From assembly GCF_003334785.1 (NCBI RefSeq), contig NZ_QOWV01000002.1: a DNA stretch of 64,000 nucleotides. One strand, written 5' to 3'. The notes under the pieces were generated by a model, which saw nothing but the letters and a program-made list of their open reading frames with translations, was not told where the DNA came from and ran no database searches. The translations under genes and the position numbers were made by a program. This DNA is from Escherichia coli. Lineage in GTDB: Bacteria > Pseudomonadota > Gammaproteobacteria > Enterobacterales > Enterobacteriaceae. This document shows positions 60 through 41,512 of this stretch, piece by piece. Every line of letters starts with the position of its first letter. Within the stretch, counting starts at the first letter, position 1.

Positions 60-3000
60 TTATTCAAACAGGGCTTCAATATCGTTAATTAGCTCGCTGG
101 CGGTGATGGCATCGATTACGGAGAACTGCGCTTCCTGTGTTGAATTACTCCCCCAGCCATATCTTTCTGCTTTGCCTTCCCATAGCCACAGCTTGCTTAA
201 GAGCTGCTCAGCGCTGAGTTCGGCTGGCGACATGCCTACCGCAAAGCCTTCATCGATTTCCATGATTAACGACCAGCGACCCAAAGGTTTGATCATCCAT
301 CCGATCCAGCCTCCATCCTGTGGTTCGCCCTTTATCCAGCCTTTATTCGCCAGCCCCATGACCCGACCACTCGGGCATTTTCTGCCTGCCCAGCGGGTCA
401 GTTCACTGGCATTGCGCTCGGCTTCTGTCAGGGCGTAGCTGTTACGGTCGAGCTGGCGGAACGGTGGTAGCAGTTCGTAGTCGGCAAAAAGCTGACCAAA
501 GGCGGCAGCATCCGTTGGTGATATTTCCAGAACGTGAGGAGTGCCGATAGAGATATCGCCTTCCGGCAGGGTGAAAAGATCATCGTCAGCGGTGCTGGAG
601 CTGTTATCTTCTGCTACGCGAAAGCAAGCCAGTAGCTGGTTTTCGGCGCTATAAACGCCCCAAATCAGACGGCGGGTTAAGTGACGAACCAGCGGATGCT
701 CAACCAGGAAGAGCTGGAAGTTTTCCAGCGACCAGCGGCGGCGCAGGCACATGGCGGATTCCAGCCTTGCTACCTGCTGGGCGGCGATGGTACGCGCATC
801 TTTTTTCAGCAATTTGTAGCGGTTAACCGCATCGTTCGCCCGCGTTTCATCATCGCTTTTGTTCGGTTTGGGCAGGTCTTTCAGGCGGCTGCCGGAAACA
901 TCACGCACAAACGGTTTTAAGGTTTCATCAAAGCTGACGGTGAACTGCCGTGGGCCAAAATCCAGCAGCAGCGAACCGTTATCATCCAGACCGAGATCCG
1001 GTGCTAACCGATCTTCAAGCTCCGCCACCGTGAGTTCGCGGCTCTCGGCAATGTCGGCAATTTTTTCTTTTGCCCGCTCCTGTAATGCTTTGAATTTCAG
1101 TTTCTGGGCGATGCCGTTAAGCTGCATAAGGGCGATATCACTACCGATAGCAGCGAGAATATCCAACCCAACGGTGGCGCGTTTATGCTGGGATTCACCA
1201 GGCCAGGCGCGTATTAATGGCGTCAGTTTGCGGGCGGTGTCATCGTTACCGAGAACGCCTAACGCAGTGAACGCCCAACTCTCTTTCGACGGCGCGCCAG
1301 CGGTCTGCCAGGCGGTAAACAGATCCCAGGCAAATCCCGCCAGTGAGTCGGCGGAACAGACGTCTTTCACCTGCAATAATCCCGGATACAGAGCCTCTTC
1401 CTGAGGGAAGCGGAGCATTTCACCGAGGTGGAGGAGGGCGCTATCTGGCAGTGATTGGGCATTTGCTTTTAATACCGGGCGCGTCCAGAGCGATGGCTGA
1501 TAAAAGGCCGGAAGAGTGGGGATTTTTGTCGGGTGATTATCTAAGGGATCGAGCGCAAGCAGAGCGTTCACCGCATCGGTTACTTCCGGCTGGTTATAAC
1601 GTCGGGCGATTTCTTGCAGTAATGGCTGATGACCGTTTTCGGTAAGCATACGCAAGGCAGCGCGGGCGTTATCCTGTGCTTCACCGGCTTTGCCGAGCGC
1701 CGCAGGCAGCAGGCCGGTAAGGGCATGTTCCGGGTATTTCAACAGCCAGCTACGGGCGTTTTCGCGTAGCGTTTTCAGTTTGTTGAAGGCACGGGCGACG
1801 GCAGGAGCCAGCTCACTCGCTGCGAAGTAATTCGTGATGGGCAAGGCTTCTTGTGGATAGCGTGCAAGTGAGTTTACTAACCCAGGTAACCCTTTGAGTC
1901 CAAAATGTAACATGGAGTATTCGGTATCGGTATGTGGAGATAGGGTAAGGGCATTCCATGCTTTTACTGCTTTCTCCAGCGGCAATGTTGTCAAAATCCC
2001 CAACTGCCAATAATGCCCGGTAGGTGAATGAAACACCTTAAATTCACTTAGTAAGGTTGAATAATCTTCATTTAGCCATGCCTCAACTACCGCTTCGGGA
2101 GCTTTAATATATGTACCAGCGATCCGTCGTTGAAAACCCATCCTTGCCAACAGGTTGGTAGTACTTTCTTCATGGCTAACCGTGATGTGTTTTGAATACC
2201 AGATATATTTCGCCAAAAGTTGATTACTGATTTCTTCTGTCAGATAACAGATTGGCTCAATGCCTAATGGCGCTAAATCCAGCACCGGAATCGGCGATTT
2301 TTTCTTTTTCGAAAGCCAGGGAGGGGAGACTACTACGGCTGGCAGTAGATCGGCGCTGGCATGGTTTGAGGGCTGTGTCAGTTGTTGCTGGCATGATTTC
2401 AGTACGGCAACTGCGGGTGTCGAGAGCCAGGGAATGACCTGTTCTGCCAGTGCTGGTTGTGAGATAAGCATTGTCATTAGCATAATGCGCCAACTGTTCT
2501 CTTCTTTTTGCCCAAGAAGTTCCGTCAGTGCCGCCATTGCTGCATGTGGGAACGCAGCAATGGCTTTCGTCATCCGATCGTGACAGCGTTTAGTTTGCCC
2601 GGCTACACGTATAAGCAGTGTCAATGCGAACGGATGATTGATATGACGCAACACATCGGCGCAGTAGTCACTTGCGGCATAGGGAGCAAATCGGGGCAGG
2701 GCTGCAACACCTTGCTCCTGTAATACGGTGGCTGACCATATCGCACCACAATAGTAATCATCAAAAATGGCATATGGTTCGTGATATTTTTCTAATGAGG
2801 CAAGAATGTGCTCATCAGTCGCCACTATTTTTAACCACTCAAGCGAGGGTAATTTTTTTTGCCCCAGTAGACGCTGGGCAATTTCATGTGCAATTTCTGG
2901 TTTTTCGGGTAATAACAAAGCAATTAATGGTTGCCGCCATTCTGGAATATGTGGAATTGCGGCAATAAGTTTTTGTGCACATTTTTGCCAGAGAGACTCT

Positions 3001-3854
3001 TCCGTCAGTGATAAATGTTTACGTAGGCGTAATTCAAATCTGGAATATTGCTCCAAGTAGCTAGGTGCAATGCCAGACGGCAGAATAATAATGACATTAT
3101 TCGCATAATCCCATTCAATATCAATCTGTTGAAGGTGTATTATTACATCAGTAGCATATTCCAGACCGCCTTCCTGGACGATCTGATCCATAACATCCTC
3201 ACGCACTTTATATCTTGTGCATTTCATTTCAAGTGCCGTGAGTACAGCCATTACTGGTGATGGTAACTGTGTTGTTTTCAGGCCGTCGATCTGACTGATC
3301 GCCTGGGCGACGGTGTTTTGCCATTCTAAAGAACAGGCGCTGAAGTCAAATGTGGCTGTTTTATTATCCCGTTGCGACACACTACAGGCTAAGCGACGTA
3401 ATTGGGTCAATTTGTCTGCTTGCTGAACAGGAACTCCGGGAAAGCGGCGATGACTTAACGTGGTGTGTACAACTTCGGGCGGAAAAACGACAGCAATATC
3501 TTTCGCCAGCCACGGTAAAACAGCATCTGTATTTTTGTCAGGCGCACGGGTTTCTGCTACGAAAGAGGGTTGTTCCTGAATAATGGTGGATAAGTCCGCT
3601 ACCTTGAGAGAGCCCGTTACCGTTTGGGAAGGTTGCAAAGAATTATCCTTCGCTTGCTCCACATACCCCTTCTTCACCTTCTCCGCAATCAGCTTAAGTT
3701 CCGCTTTTTCCGCTGCCGCAGCATCTGAAAAACTTTTTATCTGACTTTGCCCTTTGGTGCCAACTTTTCCCCAACTGATATGCAACTCGTTTCCCTGTTG
3801 CTCCACCGCCCAGAATTTATGTGATTTTTCGTCCTGATAGATAAAGTGTCTCAT
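60..3854 (-). CDS. molR: MolR, large WGR-domain protein (1264 aa), apparently intact
   Basis: Single uninterrupted 1264-aa ORF; N-terminus MRHFIYQDEKSHKFWAVEQQGNELHISWGKVG is WGR-like; position immediately next to metG. Confidence 0.8.
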   Translation of the reverse strand: MRHFIYQDEKSHKFWAVEQQGNELHISWGKVGTKGQSQIKSFSDAAAAEKAELKLIAEKVKKGYVEQAKDNSLQPSQTVTGSLKVADLSTIIQEQPSFVAETRAPDKNTDAVLPWLAKDIAVVFPPEVVHTTLSHRRFPGVPVQQADKLTQLRRLACSVSQRDNKTATFDFSACSLEWQNTVAQAISQIDGLKTTQLPSPVMAVLTALEMKCTRYKVREDVMDQIVQEGGLEYATDVIIHLQQIDIEWDYANNVIIILPSGIAPSYLEQYSRFELRLRKHLSLTEESLWQKCAQKLIAAIPHIPEWRQPLIALLLPEKPEIAHEIAQRLLGQKKLPSLEWLKIVATDEHILASLEKYHEPYAIFDDYYCGAIWSATVLQEQGVAALPRFAPYAASDYCADVLRHINHPFALTLLIRVAGQTKRCHDRMTKAIAAFPHAAMAALTELLGQKEENSWRIMLMTMLISQPALAEQVIPWLSTPAVAVLKSCQQQLTQPSNHASADLLPAVVVSPPWLSKKKKSPIPVLDLAPLGIEPICYLTEEISNQLLAKYIWYSKHITVSHEESTTNLLARMGFQRRIAGTYIKAPEAVVEAWLNEDYSTLLSEFKVFHSPTGHYWQLGILTTLPLEKAVKAWNALTLSPHTDTEYSMLHFGLKGLPGLVNSLARYPQEALPITNYFAASELAPAVARAFNKLKTLRENARSWLLKYPEHALTGLLPAALGKAGEAQDNARAALRMLTENGHQPLLQEIARRYNQPEVTDAVNALLALDPLDNHPTKIPTLPAFYQPSLWTRPVLKANAQSLPDSALLHLGEMLRFPQEEALYPGLLQVKDVCSADSLAGFAWDLFTAWQTAGAPSKESWAFTALGVLGNDDTARKLTPLIRAWPGESQHKRATVGLDILAAIGSDIALMQLNGIAQKLKFKALQERAKEKIADIAESRELTVAELEDRLAPDLGLDDNGSLLLDFGPRQFTVSFDETLKPFVRDVSGSRLKDLPKPNKSDDETRANDAVNRYKLLKKDARTIAAQQVARLESAMCLRRRWSLENFQLFLVEHPLVRHLTRRLIWGVYSAENQLLACFRVAEDNSSSTADDDLFTLPEGDISIGTPHVLEISPTDAAAFGQLFADYELLPPFRQLDRNSYALTEAERNASELTRWAGRKCPSGRVMGLANKGWIKGEPQDGGWIGWMIKPLGRWSLIMEIDEGFAVGMSPAELSAEQLLSKLWLWEGKAERYGWGSNSTQEAQFSVIDAITASELINDIEALFE

Positions 3855-3994
3855 TCTGCATCCCTGTAATTTTATCCAGTTGAATGCAGATGCTACCAGT
3901 ATTTATGCGGGTTAGAGAGAGACAAAATCGCAAGAAAACAACTTTAGGAATTTATAAAGAAAAGGCGCTGTCGATGCAGCGCCTTGAAGGGGGA

Positions 3995-6028
3995 TTATTT
4001 CACCTGATGACCCGGTTTAGCACCAGCATCCGGGCTTAGCAGGAAGATATCTTTCCCGCCTGGACCGGCAGCCATCACCATGCCTTCGGAGATTCCAAAG
4101 CGCATTTTACGTGGTGCCAGGTTAGCCACCATAATGGTGTGACGACCAATCAGTGCCTGCGGATCCGGGTAGGCAGAACGAATACCGGAGAAGACATTGC
4201 GTTTTTCACCGCCGAGATCCAGTGTCAGGCGCAGCAGTTTGTCAGAACCTTCAACAAACTCTGCGTTTTCGATCAGCGCTACGCGCAGGTCAACTTTGGC
4301 GAAGTCGTCAAAGGTGATGGTTTCCTGAATCGGATCATCTGCCAGTGGGCCAGTAACTGGCGCGGCAGCTGCTTTCACTTCTTCTTTAGAGGCTTCCACC
4401 AGAGCTTCAACCTGTTTCATATCGATGCGGTTATACAGCGCCTTGAACGGATTCACTTTGTGGCCCAGCAGCGGTTGCTGGATACCATCCCAGGTCAGTT
4501 CCGTATTGAGGAAGGCTTCTGCACGCTCGGTCAGTTTCGGCAGTACCGGCTTCAGGTAAGTCATCAGCACGCGGAACAGGTTGATGCCCATTGAGCAAAT
4601 CGCCTGCAGGTCAGCATCGCGACCTTCCTGTTTTGCGACTACCCACGGAGCCTGTTCATCGACATAGCGGTTAGCCAGATCAGCCAGCGCCATGATTTCG
4701 CGCACAGCTTTACCAAATTCACGGCTTTCCCACGCTTCACCAATCACTTCAGCGGCATCAGTGAAGGTTTTGTACAACTGCGGGTCAGCCAGTTCGTTTG
4801 CCAGCACGCCGTCAAAACGTTTGTTGATAAAGCCCGCGTTACGGGAGGCCAGGTTAACCACTTTGTTAACGATATCGGCATTCACGCGCTGAACGAAATC
4901 CTCCAGGTTGAGATCGATATCATCAATGCGCGAAGAGAGTTTCGCAGTGTAGTAGTAACGCAGGCTGTCAGCGTCAAAATGATTCAGCCAGGTGCTGGCT
5001 TTAATAAAGGTGCCGCGAGACTTGGACATCTTCGCGCCGTTCACCGTCACATAGCCATGAACAAACAGGTTGGTCGGCTTGCGGAAGTTGCTGCCTTCCA
5101 GCATGGCAGGCCAGAACAGGCTGTGGAAGTAAACGATATCTTTACCGATGAAGTGGTACAGCTCGGCGGTGGAGTCTTTCTTCCAGTATTCATCGAAGCT
5201 TACGCTGTCGCCGCGCTTGTCGCACAGATTCTTGAAAGAACCCATGTAGCCAATCGGTGCGTCCAGCCAGACGTAGAAATATTTGCCCGGCGCGTTCGGA
5301 ATTTCAAAACCAAAGTATGGCGCGTCGCGGGAGATATCCCACTGTTGCAGGCCGGATTCAAACCACTCCTGCATTTTATTTGCCACCTGCTCCTGCAACG
5401 CACCGCTGCGGGTCCATGCCTGCAACATTTCGCTGAAAGAGGGCAGATCAAAGAAGAAGTGTTCAGAATCACGCATTACCGGCGTAGCGCCAGAAACCAC
5501 CGATTTCGGCTCGATCAATTCAGTCGGGCTGTAGGTCGCGCCGCAGACTTCGCAGTTATCGCCGTATTGATCCGGGGATTTACATTTCGGGCAGGTGCCT
5601 TTCACAAAACGGTCCGGCAGGAACATGCCTTTTTCCGGATCGTACAGCTGAGAGATGGTGCGGTTTTTAATAAAACCGTTCTCTTTCAGGCGAGAGTAGA
5701 TAAGTTCTGACAACTGGCGGTTCTCTTCGCTGTGCGTCGAGTGATAGTTGTCATAGCTGATGTTAAAGCCTGCGAAATCAGTCTGATGCTCCTGACTCAT
5801 TTCGCCAATCATCTGCTCCGGGGTGATACCAAGCTGCTGAGCTTTCAGCATGATCGGTGTACCGTGGGCATCGTCGGCGCAGATGAAGTTGACCTCGTGG
5901 CCGCGCATTCGCTGGTAACGGACCCAGACATCAGCCTGGATGTGCTCCAGCATATGGCCGAGGTGGATTGAGCCGTTAGCGTACGGCAGTGCGCACGTCA
6001 CCAGAATTTTCTTCGCGACTTGAGTCAT
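3995..6028 (-). CDS. metG: methionine--tRNA ligase
   Basis: Translation [31 protein letters not shown]... with HIGH-type motif (HLGH), KMSKS motif and C-terminal tRNA-binding domain; start moved to ATG at 6026-6028. Confidence 0.95.
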
Positions 6029-7531: not shown

Positions 7532-7813
7532 ATGAATAAGTATTGGCTGTCAGGAATTATTTTTCTTGCCTATGGATTGGCTTCTCCCGCATTCTCTTCA
7601 GAGACTGCCACATTAGCGATTAATGGCAGGATCAGTCCCCCAACATGCAGTATGGCTATGGTTAATGGTCAACCTCAACAGCATTGTGGTCAGTTAACGT
7701 ATAATGTTGACACCCGTCATCTGTTTTCTTCGCCCGTCAAAGGTGTAACGACAGAAGTGGTTGTTGCAGGTAGCGATAGCAAACGTCGAATCGTGTTAAA
7801 TCGCTACGATTAA
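7532..7813 (+). CDS. yehE: small secreted protein YehE (93 aa, signal peptide)
   Basis: ORF with N-terminal signal-like sequence MNKYWLSGIIFLAYGLASPAFS; sits just upstream of the yeh fimbrial operon. Confidence 0.6.
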   Translation: MNKYWLSGIIFLAYGLASPAFSSETATLAINGRISPPTCSMAMVNGQPQQHCGQLTYNVDTRHLFSSPVKGVTTEVVVAGSDSKRRIVLNRYD

Positions 7814-7842
7814 TTTGGCAACCTGATTTTAATTGCATTTAG

Positions 7843-7881
7843 AAAGCCGAAATCATTTATATAAATGATTTCGGCTTTTTT
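7843..7881 (+). terminator. intrinsic terminator after yehE
   Basis: Perfect hairpin AAAGCCGAAATCATTTAT/ATAAATGATTTCGGCTTT followed by TTTTTT. Confidence 0.7.
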
Positions 7882-8105
7882 ATTGATATCAACAATACCA
7901 TTTACATAAATCTACATTAATTGATAGATGCGATAAATAGTTAATACTCTTAAATATTTGTTGTATTTATATTGCAATGGTTAATTTGTTTTAAATCAAT
8001 AAAACAATGTGTTTACATTGCGGCAACTTTTTTGATGTGAGAAATTTGTTTCCAAGAGATACAGACTCTTAACAACCAAAAATAAATTTTATTAAGGAAC
8101 ATATT

Positions 8106-8648
8106 ATGAAACGTTCAATTATTGCTGTCGCTGTCTTTTCTTCTTTTTTTATGAGCGCTGGAGTATTTGCTGCAGACGTTGATACCGGAACATTAACTAT
8201 TAAGGGGAATATTGCACAATCTCCGTGTAAATTCGAAGCGGGTGGTGATTCAGTAAGTATTAATATGCCGACTGTACCAACCAGTGTCTTTGAAGGTAAA
8301 GCTAAATATTCTACCTATGATGATGCAGTCGGTGTAACCAGCAGCATGTTAAAAATTAGCTGCCCGAAAGAAGTTGCTGGTGTAAAACTCTCGTTGATTA
8401 CCAACGATAAAATAACCGGTAACGATAAGGCGATAGCCAGTAGTAACGATACCGTGGGTTACTATCTCTATTTAGGTGATAACAGCGATGTCCTGGATGT
8501 TTCTGCACCTTTTAACATTGAGAGTTATAAAACAGCGGAAGGTCAATATGCTATTCCGTTTAAAGCAAAATACCTGAAACTGACAGATAACTCAGTGCAA
8601 TCAGGTGATGTGTTATCTTCTCTGGTTATGCGTGTGGCGCAGGATTAA
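8106..8648 (+). CDS. yehD: fimbrial major subunit (chaperone-usher pilus)
   Basis: 180 aa, signal peptide MKRSIIAVAVFSSFFMSAGVFA, pilin-like length and Cys pair; first gene of a subunit-chaperone-usher-adhesin operon. Confidence 0.85.
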   Translation: MKRSIIAVAVFSSFFMSAGVFAADVDTGTLTIKGNIAQSPCKFEAGGDSVSINMPTVPTSVFEGKAKYSTYDDAVGVTSSMLKISCPKEVAGVKLSLITNDKITGNDKAIASSNDTVGYYLYLGDNSDVLDVSAPFNIESYKTAEGQYAIPFKAKYLKLTDNSVQSGDVLSSLVMRVAQD

Positions 8649-8727
8649 TAAATAAAATTGTAAGTTTCTCCAGGTAATAAACATGGCCGCTATCCCATGG
8701 CGGCCTTTTAATTTAAGAGGCATTAAA

Positions 8728-9402
8728 ATGAAAGGATTATTATCTTTACTCATTTTTTCTATGGTCCTTCCTGCACATGCCGGAATTGTTATCTACGGGA
8801 CGCGCATTATTTACCCGGCAGAAAATAAAGAAGTGATGGTGCAGTTGATGAACCAGGGAAACCGTTCTTCGCTGCTGCAGGCGTGGATTGATGATGGCGA
8901 TACGTCATTACCACCAGAAAAAATTCAGGTTCCTTTCATGTTAACGCCACCAGTGGCAAAAATAGGGGCAAATTCCGGGCAGCAAGTAAAAATCAAAATT
9001 ATGCCGAATAAACTGCCCACTAATAAAGAAAGCATTTTTTATCTGAATGTTCTGGATATTCCACCAAATAGTCCAGAGCAAGAAGGTAAGAATGCACTGA
9101 AGTTTGCGATGCAAAACAGAATTAAGTTGTTTTACCGGCCAGCGGGTATTGCTCCGGTAAATAAAGCGACATTTAAAAAATTGCTGGTAAATCGCAGTGG
9201 CAATGGTTTGGTGATAAAAAATGACTCAGCTAATTGGGTGACGATTTCGGATGTCAAAGCTAATAATGTCAAAGTCAATTATGAAACTATTATGATTGCC
9301 CCCTTAGAAAGTCAGAGTGTTAATGTCAAAAGTAATAATGCAAATAACTGGCATCTGACCATTATCGATGACCATGGCAACTATATTAGTGACAAAATTT
9401 AA
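8728..9402 (+). CDS. yehC: periplasmic fimbrial chaperone (PapD-like)
   Basis: MKGLLSLLIFSMVLPAHAGIVIYGTRIIYPAENKEVMVQLMNQGN... has the typical chaperone N-terminus; start set at the ATG preceded by AAGAGG. Confidence 0.85.
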   Translation: MKGLLSLLIFSMVLPAHAGIVIYGTRIIYPAENKEVMVQLMNQGNRSSLLQAWIDDGDTSLPPEKIQVPFMLTPPVAKIGANSGQQVKIKIMPNKLPTNKESIFYLNVLDIPPNSPEQEGKNALKFAMQNRIKLFYRPAGIAPVNKATFKKLLVNRSGNGLVIKNDSANWVTISDVKANNVKVNYETIMIAPLESQSVNVKSNNANNWHLTIIDDHGNYISDKI

Positions 9403-9417
9403 TTGCAGGAGCTGCCT

Positions 9418-11898
9418 ATGTTGAGAATGACCCCACTTGCATCAGCAATCGTAGCGTTATTGCTCGGCATTGAAGCTTATGCAGCTGAAGAAACCTTTGA
9501 TACCCATTTTATGATAGGTGGAATGAAAGACCAGCAGGTTGCAAATATTCGTCTTGATGATAATCAACCCTTACCGGGGCAGTATGACATCGATATTTAT
9601 GTCAATAAGCAATGGCGCGGGAAATATGAGATTATTGTTAAAGACAACCCGCAAGAAACATGTTTATCAAGAGAAGTTATCAAGCGGTTAGGCATTAATA
9701 GCGATAACTTCGCCAGCGGTAAGCAATGTTTAACATTTGAGCAACTTGTTCAGGGTGGGAGCTATACCTGGGATATCGGGGTTTTTCGTCTCGATTTCAG
9801 TGTCCCGCAGGCCTGGGTGGAAGAACTGGAAAGTGGCTATGTTCCACCGGAAAACTGGGAGCGGGGTATTAATGCGTTTTATACCTCTTATTATCTGAGT
9901 CAGTATTACAGCGACTATAAAGCGTCGGGTAATAACAAGAGTACATATGTACGTTTTAACAGCGGGTTAAATTTACTGGGGTGGCAACTGCATTCTGATG
10001 CCAGTTTCAGTAAAACAAATAACAATCCAGGGGTGTGGAAAAGCAATACCCTGTATCTGGAACGTGGATTTGCCCAACTTCTCGGCACGCTTCGCGTGGG
10101 TGATATGTACACATCAAGCGATATTTTTGATTCTGTTCGCTTCAGAGGTGTGCGGTTGTTTCGTGATATGCAGATGTTGCCTAACTCGAAACAAAATTTT
10201 ACGCCACGGGTGCAGGGGATTGCTCAGAGTAACGCGCTGGTAACTATTGAACAGAATGGTTTTGTCGTTTATCAGAAAGAGGTTCCTCCTGGCCCGTTCG
10301 CGATTACAGATTTGCAGTTGGCCGGTGGTGGAGCAGATCTTGATGTCAGCGTGAAAGAGGCGGACGGCTCGGTAACCACCTATCTGGTGCCTTATGCAGC
10401 GGTGCCAAATATGCTGCAACCCGGCGTGTCGAAATATGATTTAGCGGCGGGTCGTAGCCATATTGAAGGGGCGAGCAAACAAAGTGATTTTGTCCAGGCG
10501 GGTTATCAGTATGGTTTTAATAATTTATTGACGCTGTATGGTGGCTCGATGGTCGCGAATAATTATTACGCGTTTACTTTGGGGGCTGGCTGGAATACAC
10601 GCATTGGTGCCATTTCCGTCGATGCCACTAAGTCGCATAGTAAACAAGACAACGGCGATGTGTTTGACGGGCAAAGTTATCAAATTGCCTACAACAAATT
10701 TGTGAGCCAAACGTCGACGCGTTTTGGTCTGGCGGCCTGGCGTTATTCGTCGCGTGATTACCGGACATTTAACGATCACGTTTGGGCAAACAACAAAGAT
10801 AATTATCGCCGTGATGAAAACGATGTCTATGACATTGCCGATTATTACCAGAACGATTTTGGCCGCAAAAATAGCTTTTCCGCCAATATGAGCCAGTCAT
10901 TGCCAGAAGGTTGGGGGTCTGTGTCATTAAGTACGTTATGGCGAGATTACTGGGGGCGTAGCGGCAGTAGTAAGGATTATCAGTTGAGTTATTCCAACAA
11001 CCTGCGACGGATAAGCTATACCCTCGCGGCAAGCCAGGCTTATGACGAGAATCATCATGAAGAGAAACGTTTTAATATTTTTATATCGATTCCCTTTGAT
11101 TGGGGTGATGACGTTTCGACGCCTCGTCGGCAAATATATATGTCTAACTCAACGACGTTTGATGATCAGGGGTTTGCCTCAAATAATACGGGATTATCAG
11201 GAACAGTAGGGAGTCGGGATCAGTTCAATTATGGTGTCAACCTGAGTCATCAACATCAGGGAAATGAAACGACAGCTGGGGCGAATTTGACCTGGAACGC
11301 GCCGGTTGCGACAGTGAATGGCAGTTATAGTCAGTCGAGTACTTATCGACAGGCTGGAGCCAGTGTTTCAGGGGGCATTGTCGCCTGGTCGGGTGGCGTT
11401 AATCTGGCGAACCGTCTTTCCGAAACGTTTGCTGTGATGAATGCGCCAGGAATTAAAGATGCTTATGTCAATGGGCAAAAATATCGCACAACAAACCGTA
11501 ATGGAGTGGTGATATACGACGGAATGACACCTTATCGGGAAAATCACCTGATGCTGGATGTGTCGCAAAGCGATAGCGAAGCAGAATTACGTGGCAACCG
11601 GAAAATTGCCGCCCCTTATCGCGGCGCGGTTGTACTGGTTAATTTTGATACCGATCAGCGCAAGCCATGGTTTATAAAAGCGTTAAGAGCAGATGGGCAA
11701 TCATTAACGTTTGGTTATGAAGTCAATGATATCCATGGTCATAATATTGGCGTTGTCGGCCAGGGAAGTCAGTTATTTATTCGCACCAATGAAGTACCGC
11801 CATCGGTTAATGTGGCAATTGATAAGCAACAAGGACTTTCATGCACAATCACCTTCGGTAAAGAGATTGATGAAAGTAGAAATTATATTTGCCAGTAA
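9418..11898 (+). CDS. yehB: fimbrial outer-membrane usher
   Basis: ~826 aa, signal peptide MLRMTPLASAIVALLLGIEAYA, size and position typical of an usher; AGGAG before ATG at 9418. Confidence 0.85.
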   Translation: MLRMTPLASAIVALLLGIEAYAAEETFDTHFMIGGMKDQQVANIRLDDNQPLPGQYDIDIYVNKQWRGKYEIIVKDNPQETCLSREVIKRLGINSDNFASGKQCLTFEQLVQGGSYTWDIGVFRLDFSVPQAWVEELESGYVPPENWERGINAFYTSYYLSQYYSDYKASGNNKSTYVRFNSGLNLLGWQLHSDASFSKTNNNPGVWKSNTLYLERGFAQLLGTLRVGDMYTSSDIFDSVRFRGVRLFRDMQMLPNSKQNFTPRVQGIAQSNALVTIEQNGFVVYQKEVPPGPFAITDLQLAGGGADLDVSVKEADGSVTTYLVPYAAVPNMLQPGVSKYDLAAGRSHIEGASKQSDFVQAGYQYGFNNLLTLYGGSMVANNYYAFTLGAGWNTRIGAISVDATKSHSKQDNGDVFDGQSYQIAYNKFVSQTSTRFGLAAWRYSSRDYRTFNDHVWANNKDNYRRDENDVYDIADYYQNDFGRKNSFSANMSQSLPEGWGSVSLSTLWRDYWGRSGSSKDYQLSYSNNLRRISYTLAASQAYDENHHEEKRFNIFISIPFDWGDDVSTPRRQIYMSNSTTFDDQGFASNNTGLSGTVGSRDQFNYGVNLSHQHQGNETTAGANLTWNAPVATVNGSYSQSSTYRQAGASVSGGIVAWSGGVNLANRLSETFAVMNAPGIKDAYVNGQKYRTTNRNGVVIYDGMTPYRENHLMLDVSQSDSEAELRGNRKIAAPYRGAVVLVNFDTDQRKPWFIKALRADGQSLTFGYEVNDIHGHNIGVVGQGSQLFIRTNEVPPSVNVAIDKQQGLSCTITFGKEIDESRNYICQ

Positions 11899-11913: not shown

Positions 11914-12948
11914 ATGGAAATTCGCATAATGCTATTTATATTAATGATGATGGTTATGCCTGTGAGCTATGCGGCATGTTATAGTGAGTTATCTGTTCAG
12001 CACAACTTGGTTGTTCAGGGGGATTTTGCACTTACTCAAACACAAATGGCGACATATGAGCATAATTTTAATGATTCGTCATGCGTAAGTACAAATACTA
12101 TCACCCCTATGAGCCCGTCGGATATTATTGTTGGACTTTATAACGATACCATAAAATTAAATTTACATTTTGAATGGACCAATAAAAACAACATCACGTT
12201 GTCAAATAATCAGACCAGTTTCACCAGTGGTTATTCAGTTACGGTGACACCTGCGGCCAGTAATGCAAAAGTGAATGTTTCTGCGGGGGGCGGCGGTTCA
12301 GTGATGATTAATGGTGTTGCGACATTATCCAGTGCTTCATCATCGACACGCGGGAGTGCCGCAGTACAATTTCTACTGTGTTTATTAGGTGGCAAGTCAT
12401 GGGATGCATGTGTAAATAGCTACAGAAATGCATTGGCACAAAATGCAGGTGTCTATTCCTTTAATCTGACATTGTCATACAACCCGATAACCACAACCTG
12501 CAAACCGGACGATTTATTAATTACTTTAGACAGTATTCCCGTTTCACAATTACCAGCCACAGGTAACAAAGCAACAATAAATAGTAAACAAGGGGATATT
12601 ATTCTGCGTTGTAAAAATTTATTAGGTCAACAAAATCAAACATCACGGAAAATGCAGGTGTATTTATCAAGTTCTGACTTGTTAACCAACAGCAACACAA
12701 TACTGAAAGGTGCGGAAGATAATGGCGTAGGATTTATTCTTGAAAGTAATGGTTCGCCAGTCACACTTTTAAATATCACTAACAGCAGTAAAGGATATAC
12801 AAATTTAAAGGAAGTTGCGGCGAAGTCAAAACTTACAGATACAACGGTTTCAATTCCGATAACAGCCAGTTACTACGTCTACGATACAAACAAAGTTAAA
12901 TCTGGCGCACTGGAGGCAACCGCATTAATCAACGTGAAATACGACTAA
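11914..12948 (+). CDS. yehA: fimbrial tip adhesin-like subunit
   Basis: 344 aa with signal peptide; last gene of the chaperone-usher operon. Confidence 0.8.
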   Translation: MEIRIMLFILMMMVMPVSYAACYSELSVQHNLVVQGDFALTQTQMATYEHNFNDSSCVSTNTITPMSPSDIIVGLYNDTIKLNLHFEWTNKNNITLSNNQTSFTSGYSVTVTPAASNAKVNVSAGGGGSVMINGVATLSSASSSTRGSAAVQFLLCLLGGKSWDACVNSYRNALAQNAGVYSFNLTLSYNPITTTCKPDDLLITLDSIPVSQLPATGNKATINSKQGDIILRCKNLLGQQNQTSRKMQVYLSSSDLLTNSNTILKGAEDNGVGFILESNGSPVTLLNITNSSKGYTNLKEVAAKSKLTDTTVSIPITASYYVYDTNKVKSGALEATALINVKYD

Positions 12949-38451: not shown

Positions 38452-38777
38452 TGGCAAAAATTCACGAGGTAAAGCTGCACGCAAAATATTTCGACCTTGT
38501 ACTGGAAGGAAAGAAACGCGCAGAGTTTCGGAAAAAAGATCGTAATTATGAGCGCGGGGGCACGTTGATTTTGCATGAATGGGTGCAGGGTGTGTTTACG
38601 GGGCGAAAGGTTGAAGCCCGGATAACAGATGTTACTGACCTGTCAGACTGGCTGGAAGATTATGTCTTGCTGCACAGAATACTAGGTGAGATACTGCCGC
38701 TGACTGTCAAGCTGGCAGTATCCTCCACATTTTTTATAAATCTAAGGCGAAGAACGGTGGCAATATATTTGCTTTAA
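38451..38777 (+). CDS. small PUA/ASCH-like protein (P2 orf91 position)
   Basis: MAKIHEVKLHAKYFDLVLEGKKRAEFRKKDRNYERGGTLILHEW...; start overlaps the A stop; C-terminal end uncertain. Confidence 0.5.
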   Translation: MAKIHEVKLHAKYFDLVLEGKKRAEFRKKDRNYERGGTLILHEWVQGVFTGRKVEARITDVTDLSDWLEDYVLLHRILGEILPLTVKLAVSSTFFINLRRRTVAIYLL

Positions 38778-38815
38778 ATTGTAAATAAGCAAATTATTCT
38801 AAGCCACAAATGATA

Positions 38816-39577
38816 TCAATTGAGTATCGATTTTCGTTCGAATATAACCATAACGCCAAGCGTCAAATGTAAGTCATCTATATGTGATTCGTATTCATAT
38901 TGGTCAGCATCAGGAGGTAGTAAATGCTCTGCTGCTGTAAAAACATCAATTGTAACAGATATATCGTCTGGAATTTCTTCATTTAATTCGGATATGTATT
39001 TTTTATATTTGTTTTTTAATTTCCTTATCATGTCTTCCTTATGGTGGATTGTAGTGCAGTAATTTTTTTTAGTTGAATCATTGTATGAATGGAATGAACA
39101 GTTTAATGCTAGGCCAAGACTTGAATTTCCTGTAGGGCCTGTGTGTTTAAAGTATTCAAGATTTCTTCTTATGTCAGAAAATAAAAGACTTTTACAGGGG
39201 GCATTTCCTTTAACTTCTATTGCACATATTGGAATGTCGAAAAATGGTCTGCTGTCCAATATGGCAATATCAATTCTGCCTGATCTTGTTGTGTTTGTGT
39301 TTTTTCTGACAGTTTTTTTTGAGAATGTTTTTTGGGGGTCAGACCGTTTCGATAAAGGAACTGTTGCATTAATGAATTTATTTGTATGGTACTCAAATAT
39401 AACTTTGTAATCACCATGGCGAAAAGATTTTATTTCTAACAACGATAGACCTATAGATACGGTAGCTACATATTCAGTGTTTATTTTTGCACCAGACCTG
39501 AAATCCATTAAATAAGTTGCGTCGGCTGACTTTTTCATTCCATCTTTTACAGCTTTCACAATATCCATGTTATTCAT
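38816..39577 (-). CDS. tin: Tin-like protein (P2 T-even phage exclusion)
   Basis: 253-aa ORF in AT-rich DNA immediately downstream of old on the same strand, the position and size of P2 tin. Confidence 0.7.
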   Translation of the reverse strand: MNNMDIVKAVKDGMKKSADATYLMDFRSGAKINTEYVATVSIGLSLLEIKSFRHGDYKVIFEYHTNKFINATVPLSKRSDPQKTFSKKTVRKNTNTTRSGRIDIAILDSRPFFDIPICAIEVKGNAPCKSLLFSDIRRNLEYFKHTGPTGNSSLGLALNCSFHSYNDSTKKNYCTTIHHKEDMIRKLKNKYKKYISELNEEIPDDISVTIDVFTAAEHLLPPDADQYEYESHIDDLHLTLGVMVIFERKSILN

Positions 39578-39751
39578 ATCAACACCTTTTATATTCCAGA
39601 ATTATAAATCTTAATGATTGATTTGTTTGTGTGTTTAGGTTACTAGATTGACGTACTTATAGCACATTCTGATTTTGAAATCACCATCCTTGGGTAAAGC
39701 ACAGCCTATCACTATTGGTTTAGTACTGTGCTGTAATAGTATCAGATTAAG

Positions 39752-41512
39752 TTAAATCCATTTTATGAAATCTTCCATTTCATCATATTTTTTTATTACT
39801 GCTCTAACATCTTTGCTTTCATCACATAAACAATCTAAAAGACTATCCCATTCAGTTTGTTTTTTACCAAATCCATAAACAGCCTCTATATCACCGGATT
39901 TCCATATATAGATTCCGTTATCTTTCAATTTTTGATGTATTTCATGTATATGCTTTTGTGTTTTTTCATGGTTACATATTTTGATGAAGTCTTTGCTTGA
40001 AATGCTTTTGAATGACTCAAAAGTAGTAACTTTTGTATTTAAACTAAGCTCTCCTGAGTTGATTGATTCAATCAAAGCAGTCAATAGATTATCACATTCA
40101 GTACTAAGTAAGTCTTTATGCTCTGTTAATAGAATATTTGATAAGAAATCACAATCAGCTAGAATCCTTGTTTTTATGCCGATGGCATTGATGATTTGTG
40201 ACATCTTAAATAAACTACCCTTACCGTCAACGGCAACAATGCAGATTTTACTCGGGTTGAGTTCATGTCCGTTAATTTTTTTATAAAGTGCATATAGAAC
40301 GTTTGTCTCTGTTTTCCCTTCAACAAGCAAAACTTCTTCAGAAAATAAAAGGTATGATGAATTAGAAAGCGTGAATGCTGAGTGCAATTGCGGTGATGAA
40401 GATTTATATAATTCTTCGATTTTTTCAGATATAGTCTTCCTTGCTATGGTTCCATTAGAATCCTTACAAACCTGAATCGCATTTGCTGCATGCTTTGCAG
40501 AAAGCATACTGGCTGAGTGAGTTGATATTATAACCTGATACCCTGATTCACTTAATGTGACAAGTGATTCTCTGACAGAATTAATGGCTGAAGGGTGTAA
40601 ATATAACTCAGGTTCATCAATGAAAATCAAAGTGTTTGATTTTTTTGATTCGCTGTTTTCTTTTTTTATTTCGGCCAGGTATTGAATTAATGCCATTTGA
40701 ATGGAACGTTGTGTTCCGTGACCAAATCGGCTGATATCTCTCATTACCGGTTCATCTTCCCGAGACTCAAAAACTTTCAGAGTGCCGGATTTAAATATCT
40801 CATCTAATGTCGGTGTGGGAAAGTGTAACTTTACACTTACGTCGGGAAAAAATTGGTTTACTTTTTTATTTACGCCTGAGTCTATTTTATTAAGGCTTTC
40901 TAATCTGTTCTCACCGTTGTGAGAAAGATATTTACCTATTTCTGATATGTTTTTTGAAAATTTTTCTTCGTGTTCTTGTTTTATTTCAGAAACAATTGCG
41001 GAAAGTATCTTTCCTATTGTGGTCGTGTTTTTGCATTTTGTTGAGTCTTCGACAGCGTCAGACATTGCAGGGATATGAATTGGTTCCGGAAATATATTGG
41101 AGATTGCACCATCTATGCCGCCAGGGTTTTTCTTCCACGTGGTACCGTCATATACATCCAGACTTTTTTTGGCTTTTCCTGTTTCCTTATTAAATTCCTG
41201 TCTTCTTGCAAAGGTAAGAGTCCCGTCAATTATAAACGGAGCTATTTTTTGTTGATTCTCTTCTGTTAACAAAGACAGAGTATCATCTGTTATACCTTGA
41301 ATAACGCCTTCAACGGATACGGGGTGTGTAGGATCGTACACATCTGATTCTGAAATCAAAGAGCCATCTAACAGCCACTTAATTGCTAAGATAATATTTG
41401 ATTTTCCTGCGTTATTATAACCAACTAAAGCAGTGAAGGGGCGCAAAATAGCCGATGTTGACTTACAAGAACGAAAGTTGCTAATTGAAACTGAAGCAAG
41501 ACGTACAGTCAT
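39752..41512 (-). CDS. old: OLD-family nuclease (ABC-type ATPase plus Toprim domain)
   Basis: 586 aa; Walker A GYNNAGKSN, Walker B LIFIDEPELYLHP, C-terminal Toprim-like LLVEGKTE...AVDGKGS...ADCDF; AT-rich. Confidence 0.9.
   Translation of the reverse strand: MTVRLASVSISNFRSCKSTSAILRPFTALVGYNNAGKSNIILAIKWLLDGSLISESDVYDPTHPVSVEGVIQGITDDTLSLLTEENQQKIAPFIIDGTLTFARRQEFNKETGKAKKSLDVYDGTTWKKNPGGIDGAISNIFPEPIHIPAMSDAVEDSTKCKNTTTIGKILSAIVSEIKQEHEEKFSKNISEIGKYLSHNGENRLESLNKIDSGVNKKVNQFFPDVSVKLHFPTPTLDEIFKSGTLKVFESREDEPVMRDISRFGHGTQRSIQMALIQYLAEIKKENSESKKSNTLIFIDEPELYLHPSAINSVRESLVTLSESGYQVIISTHSASMLSAKHAANAIQVCKDSNGTIARKTISEKIEELYKSSSPQLHSAFTLSNSSYLLFSEEVLLVEGKTETNVLYALYKKINGHELNPSKICIVAVDGKGSLFKMSQIINAIGIKTRILADCDFLSNILLTEHKDLLSTECDNLLTALIESINSGELSLNTKVTTFESFKSISSKDFIKICNHEKTQKHIHEIHQKLKDNGIYIWKSGDIEAVYGFGKKQTEWDSLLDCLCDESKDVRAVIKKYDEMEDFIKWI

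What the first reader, a model, noticed from the sequence alone, without database searches (positions are those of the whole stretch)
7814..8105. AT-rich, repeat-containing regulatory region upstream of the yehDCBA fimbrial operon
About 290 bp of strongly AT-rich DNA with A/T tracts precedes the fimbrial major-subunit gene. This is typical of H-NS-silenced cryptic chaperone-usher operons; the operon itself (subunit, chaperone, usher, adhesin) appears intact.
Basis: inference. Interest (0 to 1): 0.2.

Follow-up and report, generated by a model that had tools for sequence, protein, structure and literature searches.

The report
Silenced promoter region of Yeh fimbriae
This is the well-known AT-rich gap between the E. 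coli genes yehE and yehD: it holds the transcription stop signal of yehE and then the H-NS-bound, normally silent control region of the Yeh fimbrial operon, so the finding is correct but ordinary.

Summary
Window 7814-8105 is exactly the yehE-yehD intergenic region of E. coli and differs from K-12 MG1655 at one base of 292. The AT-richness is real: 24.7% GC, the lowest of any 292-bp stretch in the 64 kb window. The A/T tracts and direct repeats are no more than composition predicts, and there are no tandem repeats.

The one significant repeat is an 18-bp-stem hairpin (7841-7880) followed by TTTTTTATT. It is the intrinsic terminator of yehE and is kept by compensatory changes from Escherichia to Citrobacter. 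The first ~70 bp therefore belong to yehE, not to yehD regulation.

Downstream come a fast-evolving AT-rich spacer (7885-7957) and a strongly conserved core (7958-8076). The core is 95% identical between alleles whose yehE and yehD are 75-80% identical. It contains the published ArcA-P site.

Published work on K-12 lists this region as an H-NS-bound "promoter island" inside a silenced protein-occupancy domain. It also reports induction by SlyA overexpression and repression by ArcA. In EHEC, CsrA binds the leader.

The operon is intact. Novelty: already known. Interest: low.

The parts
7532..7813 (+). yehE (DUF2574 / YehE family, 93 aa, signal-peptide-like N-terminus), the gene upstream of the region
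   Evidence: ORF. RefSeq annotation. PF10836 on all homologues.
7841..7884 (+). Intrinsic (Rho-independent) terminator of yehE: 18-bp stem (7841-7858 with 7863-7880), 4-nt loop, T-run TTTTTTATT at 7876-7884. It contains a perfect 36-bp palindrome at 7843-7878.
   Evidence: RNA fold -26.7 kcal/mol, z = -5.85, matched by 0 of 200 shuffles. Palindrome. Covariation across 12 Escherichia and Citrobacter sequences: 96.3% of cells paired, 5 pairs with changes on both sides, 0 of 500 shuffles reach the score, slid controls 37-57% paired.
7885..7957 (.). Fast-evolving AT-rich spacer. It holds two 8/10 matches to the H-NS high-affinity motif TCGATAAATT (7919-7928 on the - strand, 7930-7939 on the + strand).
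   Evidence: 56% identity to the O157:H7 allele. Poorly conserved in all alignments. Motif matches; their enrichment is what the composition would give.
7958..8076 (+). Conserved regulatory core, presumed to be promoter, operators and leader of yehDCBA
   Evidence: 95% identity to the O157:H7 allele, against yehE 75% and yehD 80%. Kept in E. albertii, E. whittamii, cryptic clades and a contig whose YehE is only 59% identical. Blocks of it are invariant in Citrobacter koseri and C. freundii.
7987..8029 (-). Published ArcA-P binding site with four direct-repeat elements at 11-bp phasing
   Evidence: The 43-mer given in the supplement of Park et al. 2013 maps here as its reverse complement. The same supplement gives a ChIP-seq peak in one replicate and 5.4-fold higher yehDCBA expression, listed among ArcA-repressed operons.
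8018..8046 (+). Best conserved sigma-70 candidate (inference only): TTGCGG, 17-nt spacer, TGaGAAATT (extended -10). It would start transcription near 8053.
   Evidence: Top + strand score in my own PWM scan, but 104 sites in the 64 kb score as well. The hexamers are invariant within Escherichia and partly kept in Citrobacter. No TSS is known.
8054..8070 (+). Inverted repeat AAGAG-N7-CTCTT inside the core. The arms are invariant, and the centre differs in sequence and length (7, 7, 6 nt) in Citrobacter.
   Evidence: Read from alignment A6; coordinates. Function unknown.
8094..8098 (+). Shine-Dalgarno AAGGA of yehD. Its GGA is the core of the CsrA site described for EHEC.
   Evidence: ATTAAGGAA is invariant in all 15 sequences. 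EMSA with a GG-to-CC control in Gonyar et al. 2024, done on the O157 allele, whose sequence 3' of the GGA differs from the window.
8106..8648 (+). yehD (K-12 name), fimbrial subunit, 180 aa
8683..9402 (+). yehC, periplasmic chaperone (239 aa with the K-12 start; RefSeq PGAP calls a 224-aa form)
9418..11898 (+). yehB, outer-membrane usher, 826 aa
   Evidence: NF011763 matched at 1-826/826, 1752 bits
11914..12948 (+). yehA (K-12 name), two-domain tip adhesin, 344 aa
   Evidence: NF011788 matched at 1-344/344. Residues 21-193 match PDB 9N4G at 2.8e-109.

Best explanation
The 292 bp are the yehE-yehD intergenic region and consist of three modules.

1. 7841-7884 is a Rho-independent terminator. It ends yehE transcription, so yehDCBA needs its own promoter.
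2. 7885-7957 is a fast-evolving, very AT-rich spacer. Its composition, rather than its exact sequence, favours H-NS nucleation and spreading.
3. 7958-8105 is a strongly conserved promoter, operator and leader core. It contains the ArcA-P direct repeats, a weak sigma-70 promoter whose position is not known, and a Shine-Dalgarno sequence whose GGA is a CsrA target.

In K-12-type strains under laboratory conditions an H-NS filament covers the region and keeps yehDCBA almost silent. ArcA-P adds repression under anaerobiosis. Excess SlyA, or conditions met in EHEC, relieve the block.

Shown here: the anatomy, the composition statistics, the covariation in the terminator, the conservation pattern and the intactness of the operon. 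Taken from papers: H-NS occupancy and the ArcA, SlyA and CsrA effects. Inferred: the position of the promoter and the division of labour between spacer and core.
For: - Coordinates and genes.
- GC is the lowest in 64 kb.
- Terminator fold and covariation.
- Conservation profile: core 95%, spacer 56%, yehE 75%, yehD 80%. The core persists across Escherichia species and into Citrobacter.
- The Citrobacter koseri intergenic region is equally AT-rich, 22.5-25.5% GC, so the low GC is itself conserved.
- 291/292 identity to K-12.
- H-NS binding and promoter-island status. H-NS data sets and SlyA effect. Silenced occupancy domain. ArcA site and derepression. CsrA.
- Operon intact.
Against: - No transcription start site is known for yehD. 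Simple sigma-70 scans find nothing better than background: 4 sites against 5.4 expected, and 104 equally good sites in the 64 kb. The promoter is therefore assumed, not located.
- H-NS binding is known to me only through two papers that cite the ChIP data sets. I could not open the primary tables or Korea et al. 2010.
- The ArcA ChIP peak appeared in one replicate only.
- Loss of the protein-occupancy domain did not induce yehDCBA, so H-NS alone does not explain the silence.
- The locus is transcribed from its native promoter in EHEC 86-24.
Confidence: 0.85

Rival explanations
1. yehE and yehDCBA form one operon (yehEDCBA). The region would then be an intra-operon spacer whose hairpin only attenuates or stabilises the transcript, and there would be no separate yehD promoter.
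For: The 2024 IPOD-HR preprint writes 'yehEDCBA operon'. All five genes lie on the same strand, and the yehE-subunit-chaperone-usher-adhesin order is syntenic from Escherichia to Citrobacter.
Against: The hairpin plus TTTTTTATT is a canonical strong intrinsic terminator 27 nt after the yehE stop, and it is maintained by compensatory changes. The 119-bp core downstream of it is far more conserved than either flanking gene, which an inert spacer would not be. ArcA and SlyA studies and EcoCyc-based tables treat yehDCBA as the unit. In EHEC, complementation with Z3276-Z3279 'including endogenous promoters' worked.
Confidence: 0.08
2. The conserved core (7958-8076) encodes a small RNA or a structured cis-regulatory leader, and this is the reason for its conservation rather than protein-binding sites.
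For: Conservation is well above that of the neighbouring coding DNA. The AAGAG-N7-CTCTT arms are invariant while the centre varies in sequence and length in Citrobacter, a pattern seen in RNA hairpins. CsrA acts on the leader in EHEC.
Against: No Rfam family reaches its threshold, and the weak hits all fall on the terminator hairpin. Predicted folding of the core is no better than shuffles on either strand (z = -0.52 and -0.65). There is no covariation to test, because the core hardly varies. The published ArcA operator already accounts for about 40 bp of it.
Confidence: 0.06
3. The region is a phase-variation switch like those of other fimbriae: either fimS-type inversion or pap-type Dam/Lrp methylation patterns.
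For: Many fimbrial operons are phase-variable, and the region is AT-rich with several short inverted repeats.
Against: There is no GATC site anywhere in 7814-8105. No pair of inverted repeats brackets a promoter-sized segment; the only significant one is the contiguous terminator hairpin. No recombinase gene lies next to the operon. The T-runs show substitutions between strains rather than large length changes.
Confidence: 0.02
4. The AT-richness is passive, the usual low GC of intergenic or horizontally acquired DNA, with no specific silencing role.
For: Intergenic DNA in E. coli is generally more AT-rich than coding DNA. A/T tracts, H-NS motif matches and promoter-like sites are no more frequent than composition predicts.
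Against: It is the most extreme 292 bp in 64 kb. The same low GC is kept in Citrobacter although the spacer sequence has changed. H-NS occupancy is reported from two ChIP data sets.
Confidence: 0.04

Closest known systems
The 78 'promoter islands' of E. coli K-12 (Shavkunov/Panyukov/Ozoline), of which this region is a listed member
   Same: AT-rich, about 300-350 bp, bound by H-NS and RNA polymerase, transcriptionally near-silent, upstream of genes flagged as horizontally acquired. The entry 2190229_357 yehD/yehE is this region.
   Different: My simple sigma-70 scan does not reproduce an excess of promoter-like sites; the original definition used another algorithm. The locus is not recent foreign DNA, because it is syntenic in Citrobacter and, according to Wurpel 2013, in Salmonella as stc.
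Upstream regions of the other cryptic K-12 chaperone-usher operons (yadN, sfmA, elfA/ycbQ, ybgD, yraH, yfcV)
   Same: The regions next to these genes are on the same promoter-island list, and all but the yfcV entry are marked there as associated with foreign genes. elf, sfm, yeh and yad rise together on SlyA overexpression. Several fimbria-like genes rise together on BolA overexpression.
   Different: Here a separate small gene (yehE) with its own terminator sits directly upstream, and the proximal 119 bp are unusually conserved across species. I did not examine the other operons for these features.
fim (type 1) and pap regulatory regions
   Same: AT-rich, H-NS-repressed fimbrial control regions. 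SlyA counteracts H-NS at fimB.
   Different: There is no invertible element, no adjacent recombinase and no GATC/Lrp switch.
ArcA-P operators with three or four direct repeats (Park et al. 2013)
   Same: TGTTA-like elements at 11-bp phasing, and repression under anaerobiosis.
   Different: The element scores are weak (1.4 to 7.5 bits), the ChIP peak was seen in one replicate only, and the position relative to the promoter is unknown because no TSS exists.

Membership tests
H-NS-silenced AT-rich regulatory region / 'promoter island' | AT content far above the genome average over a few hundred bp | tested here: met
   24.7% GC against 49.7% for the window, the lowest 292-bp stretch in 64 kb. 22.5-25.5% GC in Citrobacter koseri.
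H-NS-silenced AT-rich regulatory region / 'promoter island' | H-NS occupancy in vivo | not testable with these tools
   Reported for the K-12 sequence, which is 291/292 identical, in the Kahramanoglou and Oshima data sets as cited. The region lies within a silenced occupancy domain. The primary tables are not held.
H-NS-silenced AT-rich regulatory region / 'promoter island' | Derepression when H-NS is removed or antagonised | not testable with these tools
   Indirect only: 3.6-fold up with excess SlyA, an H-NS antagonist. Against: loss of the occupancy domain did not induce the operon. Korea et al. 2010 could not be read.
H-NS-silenced AT-rich regulatory region / 'promoter island' | Unusually high density of promoter-like sites | tested here: inconclusive
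   A consensus scan finds 4 sites against 5.4 +/- 2.6 in shuffles. My PWM scan finds nothing exceptional. The published classification used a different algorithm.
Rho-independent (intrinsic) terminator | Stable stem-loop directly followed by a U-run, just downstream of a stop codon | tested here: met
   18-bp stem, -26.7 kcal/mol, z = -5.85, then UUUUUUAUU, beginning 27 nt after the yehE stop.
Rho-independent (intrinsic) terminator | Structure rather than sequence conserved (compensatory changes) | tested here: met
   5 pairs with changes on both sides, 15 such cells, 96.3% of cells paired, 0 of 500 shuffles reach the score, slid controls 37-57% paired.
Rho-independent (intrinsic) terminator | Termination of transcripts in vivo | not testable with these tools
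   Needs Term-seq or 3'-end mapping.
ArcA-P operator | Direct repeats of TGTTA-like elements at about 11-bp spacing, bound by ArcA in ChIP, with the target derepressed without ArcA | tested here: inconclusive
   I only mapped the published 43-mer to 7987-8029 and showed that it lies in invariant sequence. Binding (one replicate) and the 5.4-fold effect come.
Phase-variation switch (fimS inversion or pap-type Dam/Lrp) | Inverted repeats bracketing an invertible promoter with a recombinase nearby, or paired GATC sites | tested here: not met
   No GATC site, no bracketing inverted repeats, no recombinase gene nearby.
Chaperone-usher fimbrial operon (Yeh/Stc type) | Subunit, PapD-like chaperone, usher and two-domain adhesin, all full length | tested here: met
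   NCBIfam matches. PDB match of the adhesin receptor-binding domain. Same order in Citrobacter with Pfam Fimbrial, PapD_N/C and Usher domains.

The most novel reading that the evidence does not exclude
The 119-bp core (7958-8076) is much more conserved than the genes around it, from E. coli to Citrobacter. Only about 40 bp of it is explained by a known factor (ArcA). The rest, including the invariant box TATTTGTTGTAwTTATATTGCA and the AAGAG-N6/7-CTCTT inverted repeat, could be the binding site of an undescribed dedicated activator, or a leader RNA element, that decides when Yeh fimbriae are made. That would explain why removing nucleoid-protein occupancy alone does not switch the operon on.
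Probability: 0.25. Interest if true: 0.35.

Novelty: already known. Interest (0 to 1): 0.12.

Why it matters
Yeh is one of the core chaperone-usher fimbriae of E. coli. Its adhesin was recently shown to bind pectin, and the locus influences EHEC virulence-gene expression, so knowing what switches it on has some value. The general answer for this region (AT-rich, H-NS-bound, silent in K-12, ArcA-repressed) is already published.

What this check adds is anatomical:
- the first quarter of the region is the yehE terminator;
- the middle is a composition-only spacer;
- a 119-bp core is under strong purifying selection across genera, which gives a defined target for finding the still-unknown promoter and any activator.

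Tried and rejected
1. A second genomic copy. BLAST reported two 'places' per genome for the region. Local BLAST showed the second place is the 36-bp palindrome matching itself on the other strand. It is not a repeat family.
2. Direct and tandem repeats: none beyond chance.
3. Small proteins in the region. The 21- and 22-codon ORFs at 8007-8072 and 7972-8040 lose their start codon or gain a stop in other lineages (alignment), so I rejected them.
4. Known RNA families: nothing near any threshold.
5. Structured RNA in the core: folding is no better than shuffles.
6. YehE as a remnant of a fimbrial subunit. BLASTP against YehD gives E = 3.6, so this is unsupported.
7. YehE restricted to Escherichia. 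Two searches suggested this, but Citrobacter loci carry a DUF2574 gene in the same place, so it was a sensitivity artefact.
8. Locating the promoter by consensus or PWM: no convincing site.
9. The H-NS high-affinity motif: only 8/10 matches, at the rate the composition predicts.
10. G7960T as a K-12 laboratory mutation. The T allele is also present in wild isolates.
11. Primary sources not available: Korea et al. 2010 and the supplement of Kahramanoglou et al..

Full report
**What is at the coordinates.** The window is E. coli chromosome. Its gene order is yehH/molR-like ORF (-), metG (-), apbC/mrp (+), yehE (+), yehD, yehC, yehB, yehA (+), then rcnB, rcnA, rcnR, thiM and thiD. This is the K-12 MG1655 region 2.183-2.203 Mb read in reverse. 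The 1.4 kb around the finding matches 5,422 of 5,426 complete E. coli genomes, and RefSeq annotates only yehE and yehD there. yehE ends at 7813 and yehD starts at 8106, so 7814-8105 is exactly the intergenic region. It differs from MG1655 at one base, 7960, which is G here and T in K-12.

**Checking the observation.**
- GC is 24.7% against 49.7% for the window. Only 0.06% of all 292-bp windows are as low, and all of them overlap this site (profile).
- The region has 7 A or T runs of 4 or more bases. Shuffles give 7.2 +/- 2.3, so the runs add nothing beyond composition.
- Tandem Repeats Finder returns nothing.
- The longest direct repeat, 13 nt with one mismatch, is reached in 22% of dinucleotide shuffles. 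Its second copy is not conserved in other lineages.
- The exception is an inverted repeat with 18-nt arms, against 6.6 +/- 1.1 in shuffles and reached by 0 of 300.
- The operon is intact. The usher matches its NCBIfam model at 1-826/826 and the adhesin at 1-344/344. The subunit and chaperone have the K-12 lengths.

**The hairpin is the yehE terminator.** Positions 7841-7880 fold into an 18-bp stem with a 4-nt loop, followed by UUUUUUAUU. The fold energy is -26.7 kcal/mol, with z = -5.85. On the opposite strand the same stem is followed only by UUUCUAAAU, so it works mainly for the + strand. It starts 27 nt after the yehE stop.

I aligned ten Escherichia sequences (E. coli lineages, E. albertii, E. 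whittamii, cryptic clades, one metagenomic contig) with two Citrobacter species. The stem is kept through compensatory substitutions:
- 96.3% of cells are paired.
- Five pairs change on both sides; the pair at alignment columns 14 and 37 occurs as GC, AU, CG and UA.
- 0 of 500 column shuffles reach the observed covariation score.
- Partners slid by one to three columns pair in only 37-57% of cells.

The perfect 36-bp palindrome at 7843-7878 also explains why BLAST reported two 'places' per genome: it hits itself on the other strand. The first ~70 bp of the finding therefore belong to yehE, and yehDCBA must be started downstream of 7885 or by read-through.

**Conservation splits the rest in two.** I compared the window with the divergent O157:H7-type allele, which is 81% identical overall. 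Identities by segment:

| Segment | Identity |
|---|---|
| yehE | 75% |
| terminator segment | 79% |
| 7885-7957 | 56% |
| 7958-8076 | 95% |
| last 29 bp before the ATG | 72% |
| yehD | 80% |

- The same core is nearly unchanged in E. albertii, E. whittamii, two cryptic-clade genomes and a contig whose YehE is only 59% identical.
- In Citrobacter koseri and C. freundii the synteny is metG-apbC-DUF2574-subunit-chaperone-usher-adhesin. The C. koseri intergenic region is equally AT-rich at 22.5-25.5% GC.
- These blocks stay invariant or nearly so in Citrobacter: TATTTGTTGTAwTTATATTGCA, TTGTTTTAAATCAAyAAAACAA, GTTTACATTGC, most of the GTGAGAA motif, CAAGAG...CTCTTAACAA and ATTAAGGAA.
- The spacer 7885-7957 keeps its composition but not its sequence.

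**What the core is not.**
- Rfam gives only sub-threshold hits, all on the terminator hairpin.
- The core does not fold better than shuffles on either strand.
- The small ORFs in it are broken in other lineages.
- There is no GATC site, no bracketing inverted repeat and no recombinase nearby, so the known fimbrial phase switches are excluded.

**What is published for this sequence.**
- Panyukov & Ozoline 2013 list 'yehD(-)/yehE(-) 2190229_357' among 78 K-12 promoter islands. These are regions that bind RNA polymerase, produce almost no transcript and are largely covered by H-NS. This entry is marked as H-NS-bound in the Kahramanoglou and Oshima data sets.
- Curran et al. 2017 mark yehDCBA as cryptic and H-NS-associated in the same two data sets, and find it 3.6-fold up when SlyA is overproduced.
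- A 2024 IPOD-HR preprint shows the locus inside a static silenced protein-occupancy domain. It notes that loss of the domain did not induce the operon.
- Park et al. 2013 report an ArcA ChIP-seq peak (one replicate, 3.9-fold) and a four-repeat ArcA-P site. They also report a 5.4-fold higher yehDCBA signal, listed among ArcA-repressed operons, and 'no TSS'.
- The 43-mer from Park et al. maps to 7987-8029, entirely inside the invariant core.
- BolA overproduction raises yehD and yehC.
- In EHEC 86-24 the locus is transcribed as one unit from its native promoter, responds to ethanolamine, and CsrA binds the leader in a GG-dependent way.
- The GGA in EHEC is in the Shine-Dalgarno sequence, window 8094-8098, which is invariant. 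The bases 3' of it differ between the O157 allele and the window allele.
- Wurpel et al. 2013 describe Yeh as a core-associated fimbria, orthologous to Salmonella Stc, and functional but cryptic.

**Mechanism proposed.** The terminator isolates yehE. The AT-rich spacer and core are coated by H-NS. A weak promoter in the core is additionally occluded by ArcA-P under anaerobiosis. Counter-silencers such as SlyA, or unknown activators, open it, and CsrA then acts on the leader.

The promoter position is not established. The consensus scan finds no excess of sites. The best conserved candidate, TTGCGG-17-TGaGAAATT at 8018-8046, is no better than about a hundred other sites in the window.

**Verdict.** The residual open point is what, beyond ArcA, constrains the 119-bp core.

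Noticed in passing
window 7960: This is the only difference from K-12 MG1655 in the whole intergenic region. G here (also in every other Escherichia species and in Citrobacter) is T in K-12, inside the invariant box TATTTGTTGTA. A 60-mer carrying the K-12 T allele is matched exactly in 689 complete genomes, including wild isolates, so it is not a laboratory mutation. Its effect on expression is unknown.
   Followed up: partly
window 8054-8070: Inverted repeat AAGAG-ATACAGA-CTCTT. The arms are invariant from E. coli to Citrobacter, while the centre changes in sequence and length (7, 7, 6 nt). It could be a small leader hairpin or a protein site.
   Followed up: partly
L012 (E. coli ES9) 3001-4280: In this strain an IS5-family element sits 33 bp into the intergenic region, and yehD, yehC and most of yehB are gone, leaving only a C-terminal usher fragment.
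   Followed up: no
L004 (APEC IMT5155) 1007-1550: yehD is annotated as frameshifted in this strain, so the operon is not intact everywhere.
   Followed up: no
window 7532-9700 compared with L002, L009, L010: The yehE-yehD region occurs in sharply different alleles within E. coli, about 81% identical overall. The O157:H7 allele is almost identical in the intergenic region to that of Escherichia sp. E1V33 and close to that of E. whittamii. This suggests allele exchange between Escherichia lineages.
   Followed up: partly
window 11914-12948: Naming conflict. The tip adhesin called YehA in K-12 matches PDB 9N4G, deposited as 'YehD protein' under the UTI89 naming, the pectin-binding adhesin published in 2026. 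'yehD' in the finding is the subunit gene at the start of the operon.
   Followed up: yes
window 38700-41512: The second most AT-rich stretch of the window (27-30% GC) carries P2-phage-type old (586 aa, 712 bits to PADLOC Old) and tin (253 aa, 324 bits). At least 80% of the 2-kb query (38500-40500) is matched in only 17 of 5,426 complete genomes.
   Followed up: partly
window 60-3854 (- strand): A single 1264-aa ORF lies where K-12 MG1655 has yehF plus the yehH pseudogene (together 3,796 bp), so the gene appears intact in this strain.
   Followed up: no
L002, L003, L004 (RefSeq annotations): Locus-tag numbering skips one tag between yehE and yehD in three genomes (for example SS17_RS15080 then SS17_RS15070), but not in a fourth. 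This would fit a gene call in the intergenic region that was later withdrawn.
   Followed up: no
window 7532-7813; L015 2350-2631; L016 2284-2565: The DUF2574 gene yehE keeps its place directly upstream of the fimbrial operon from Escherichia to Citrobacter, yet has its own terminator. Its function and its link to the fimbriae are unknown. It shows no significant similarity to YehD.
   Followed up: partly
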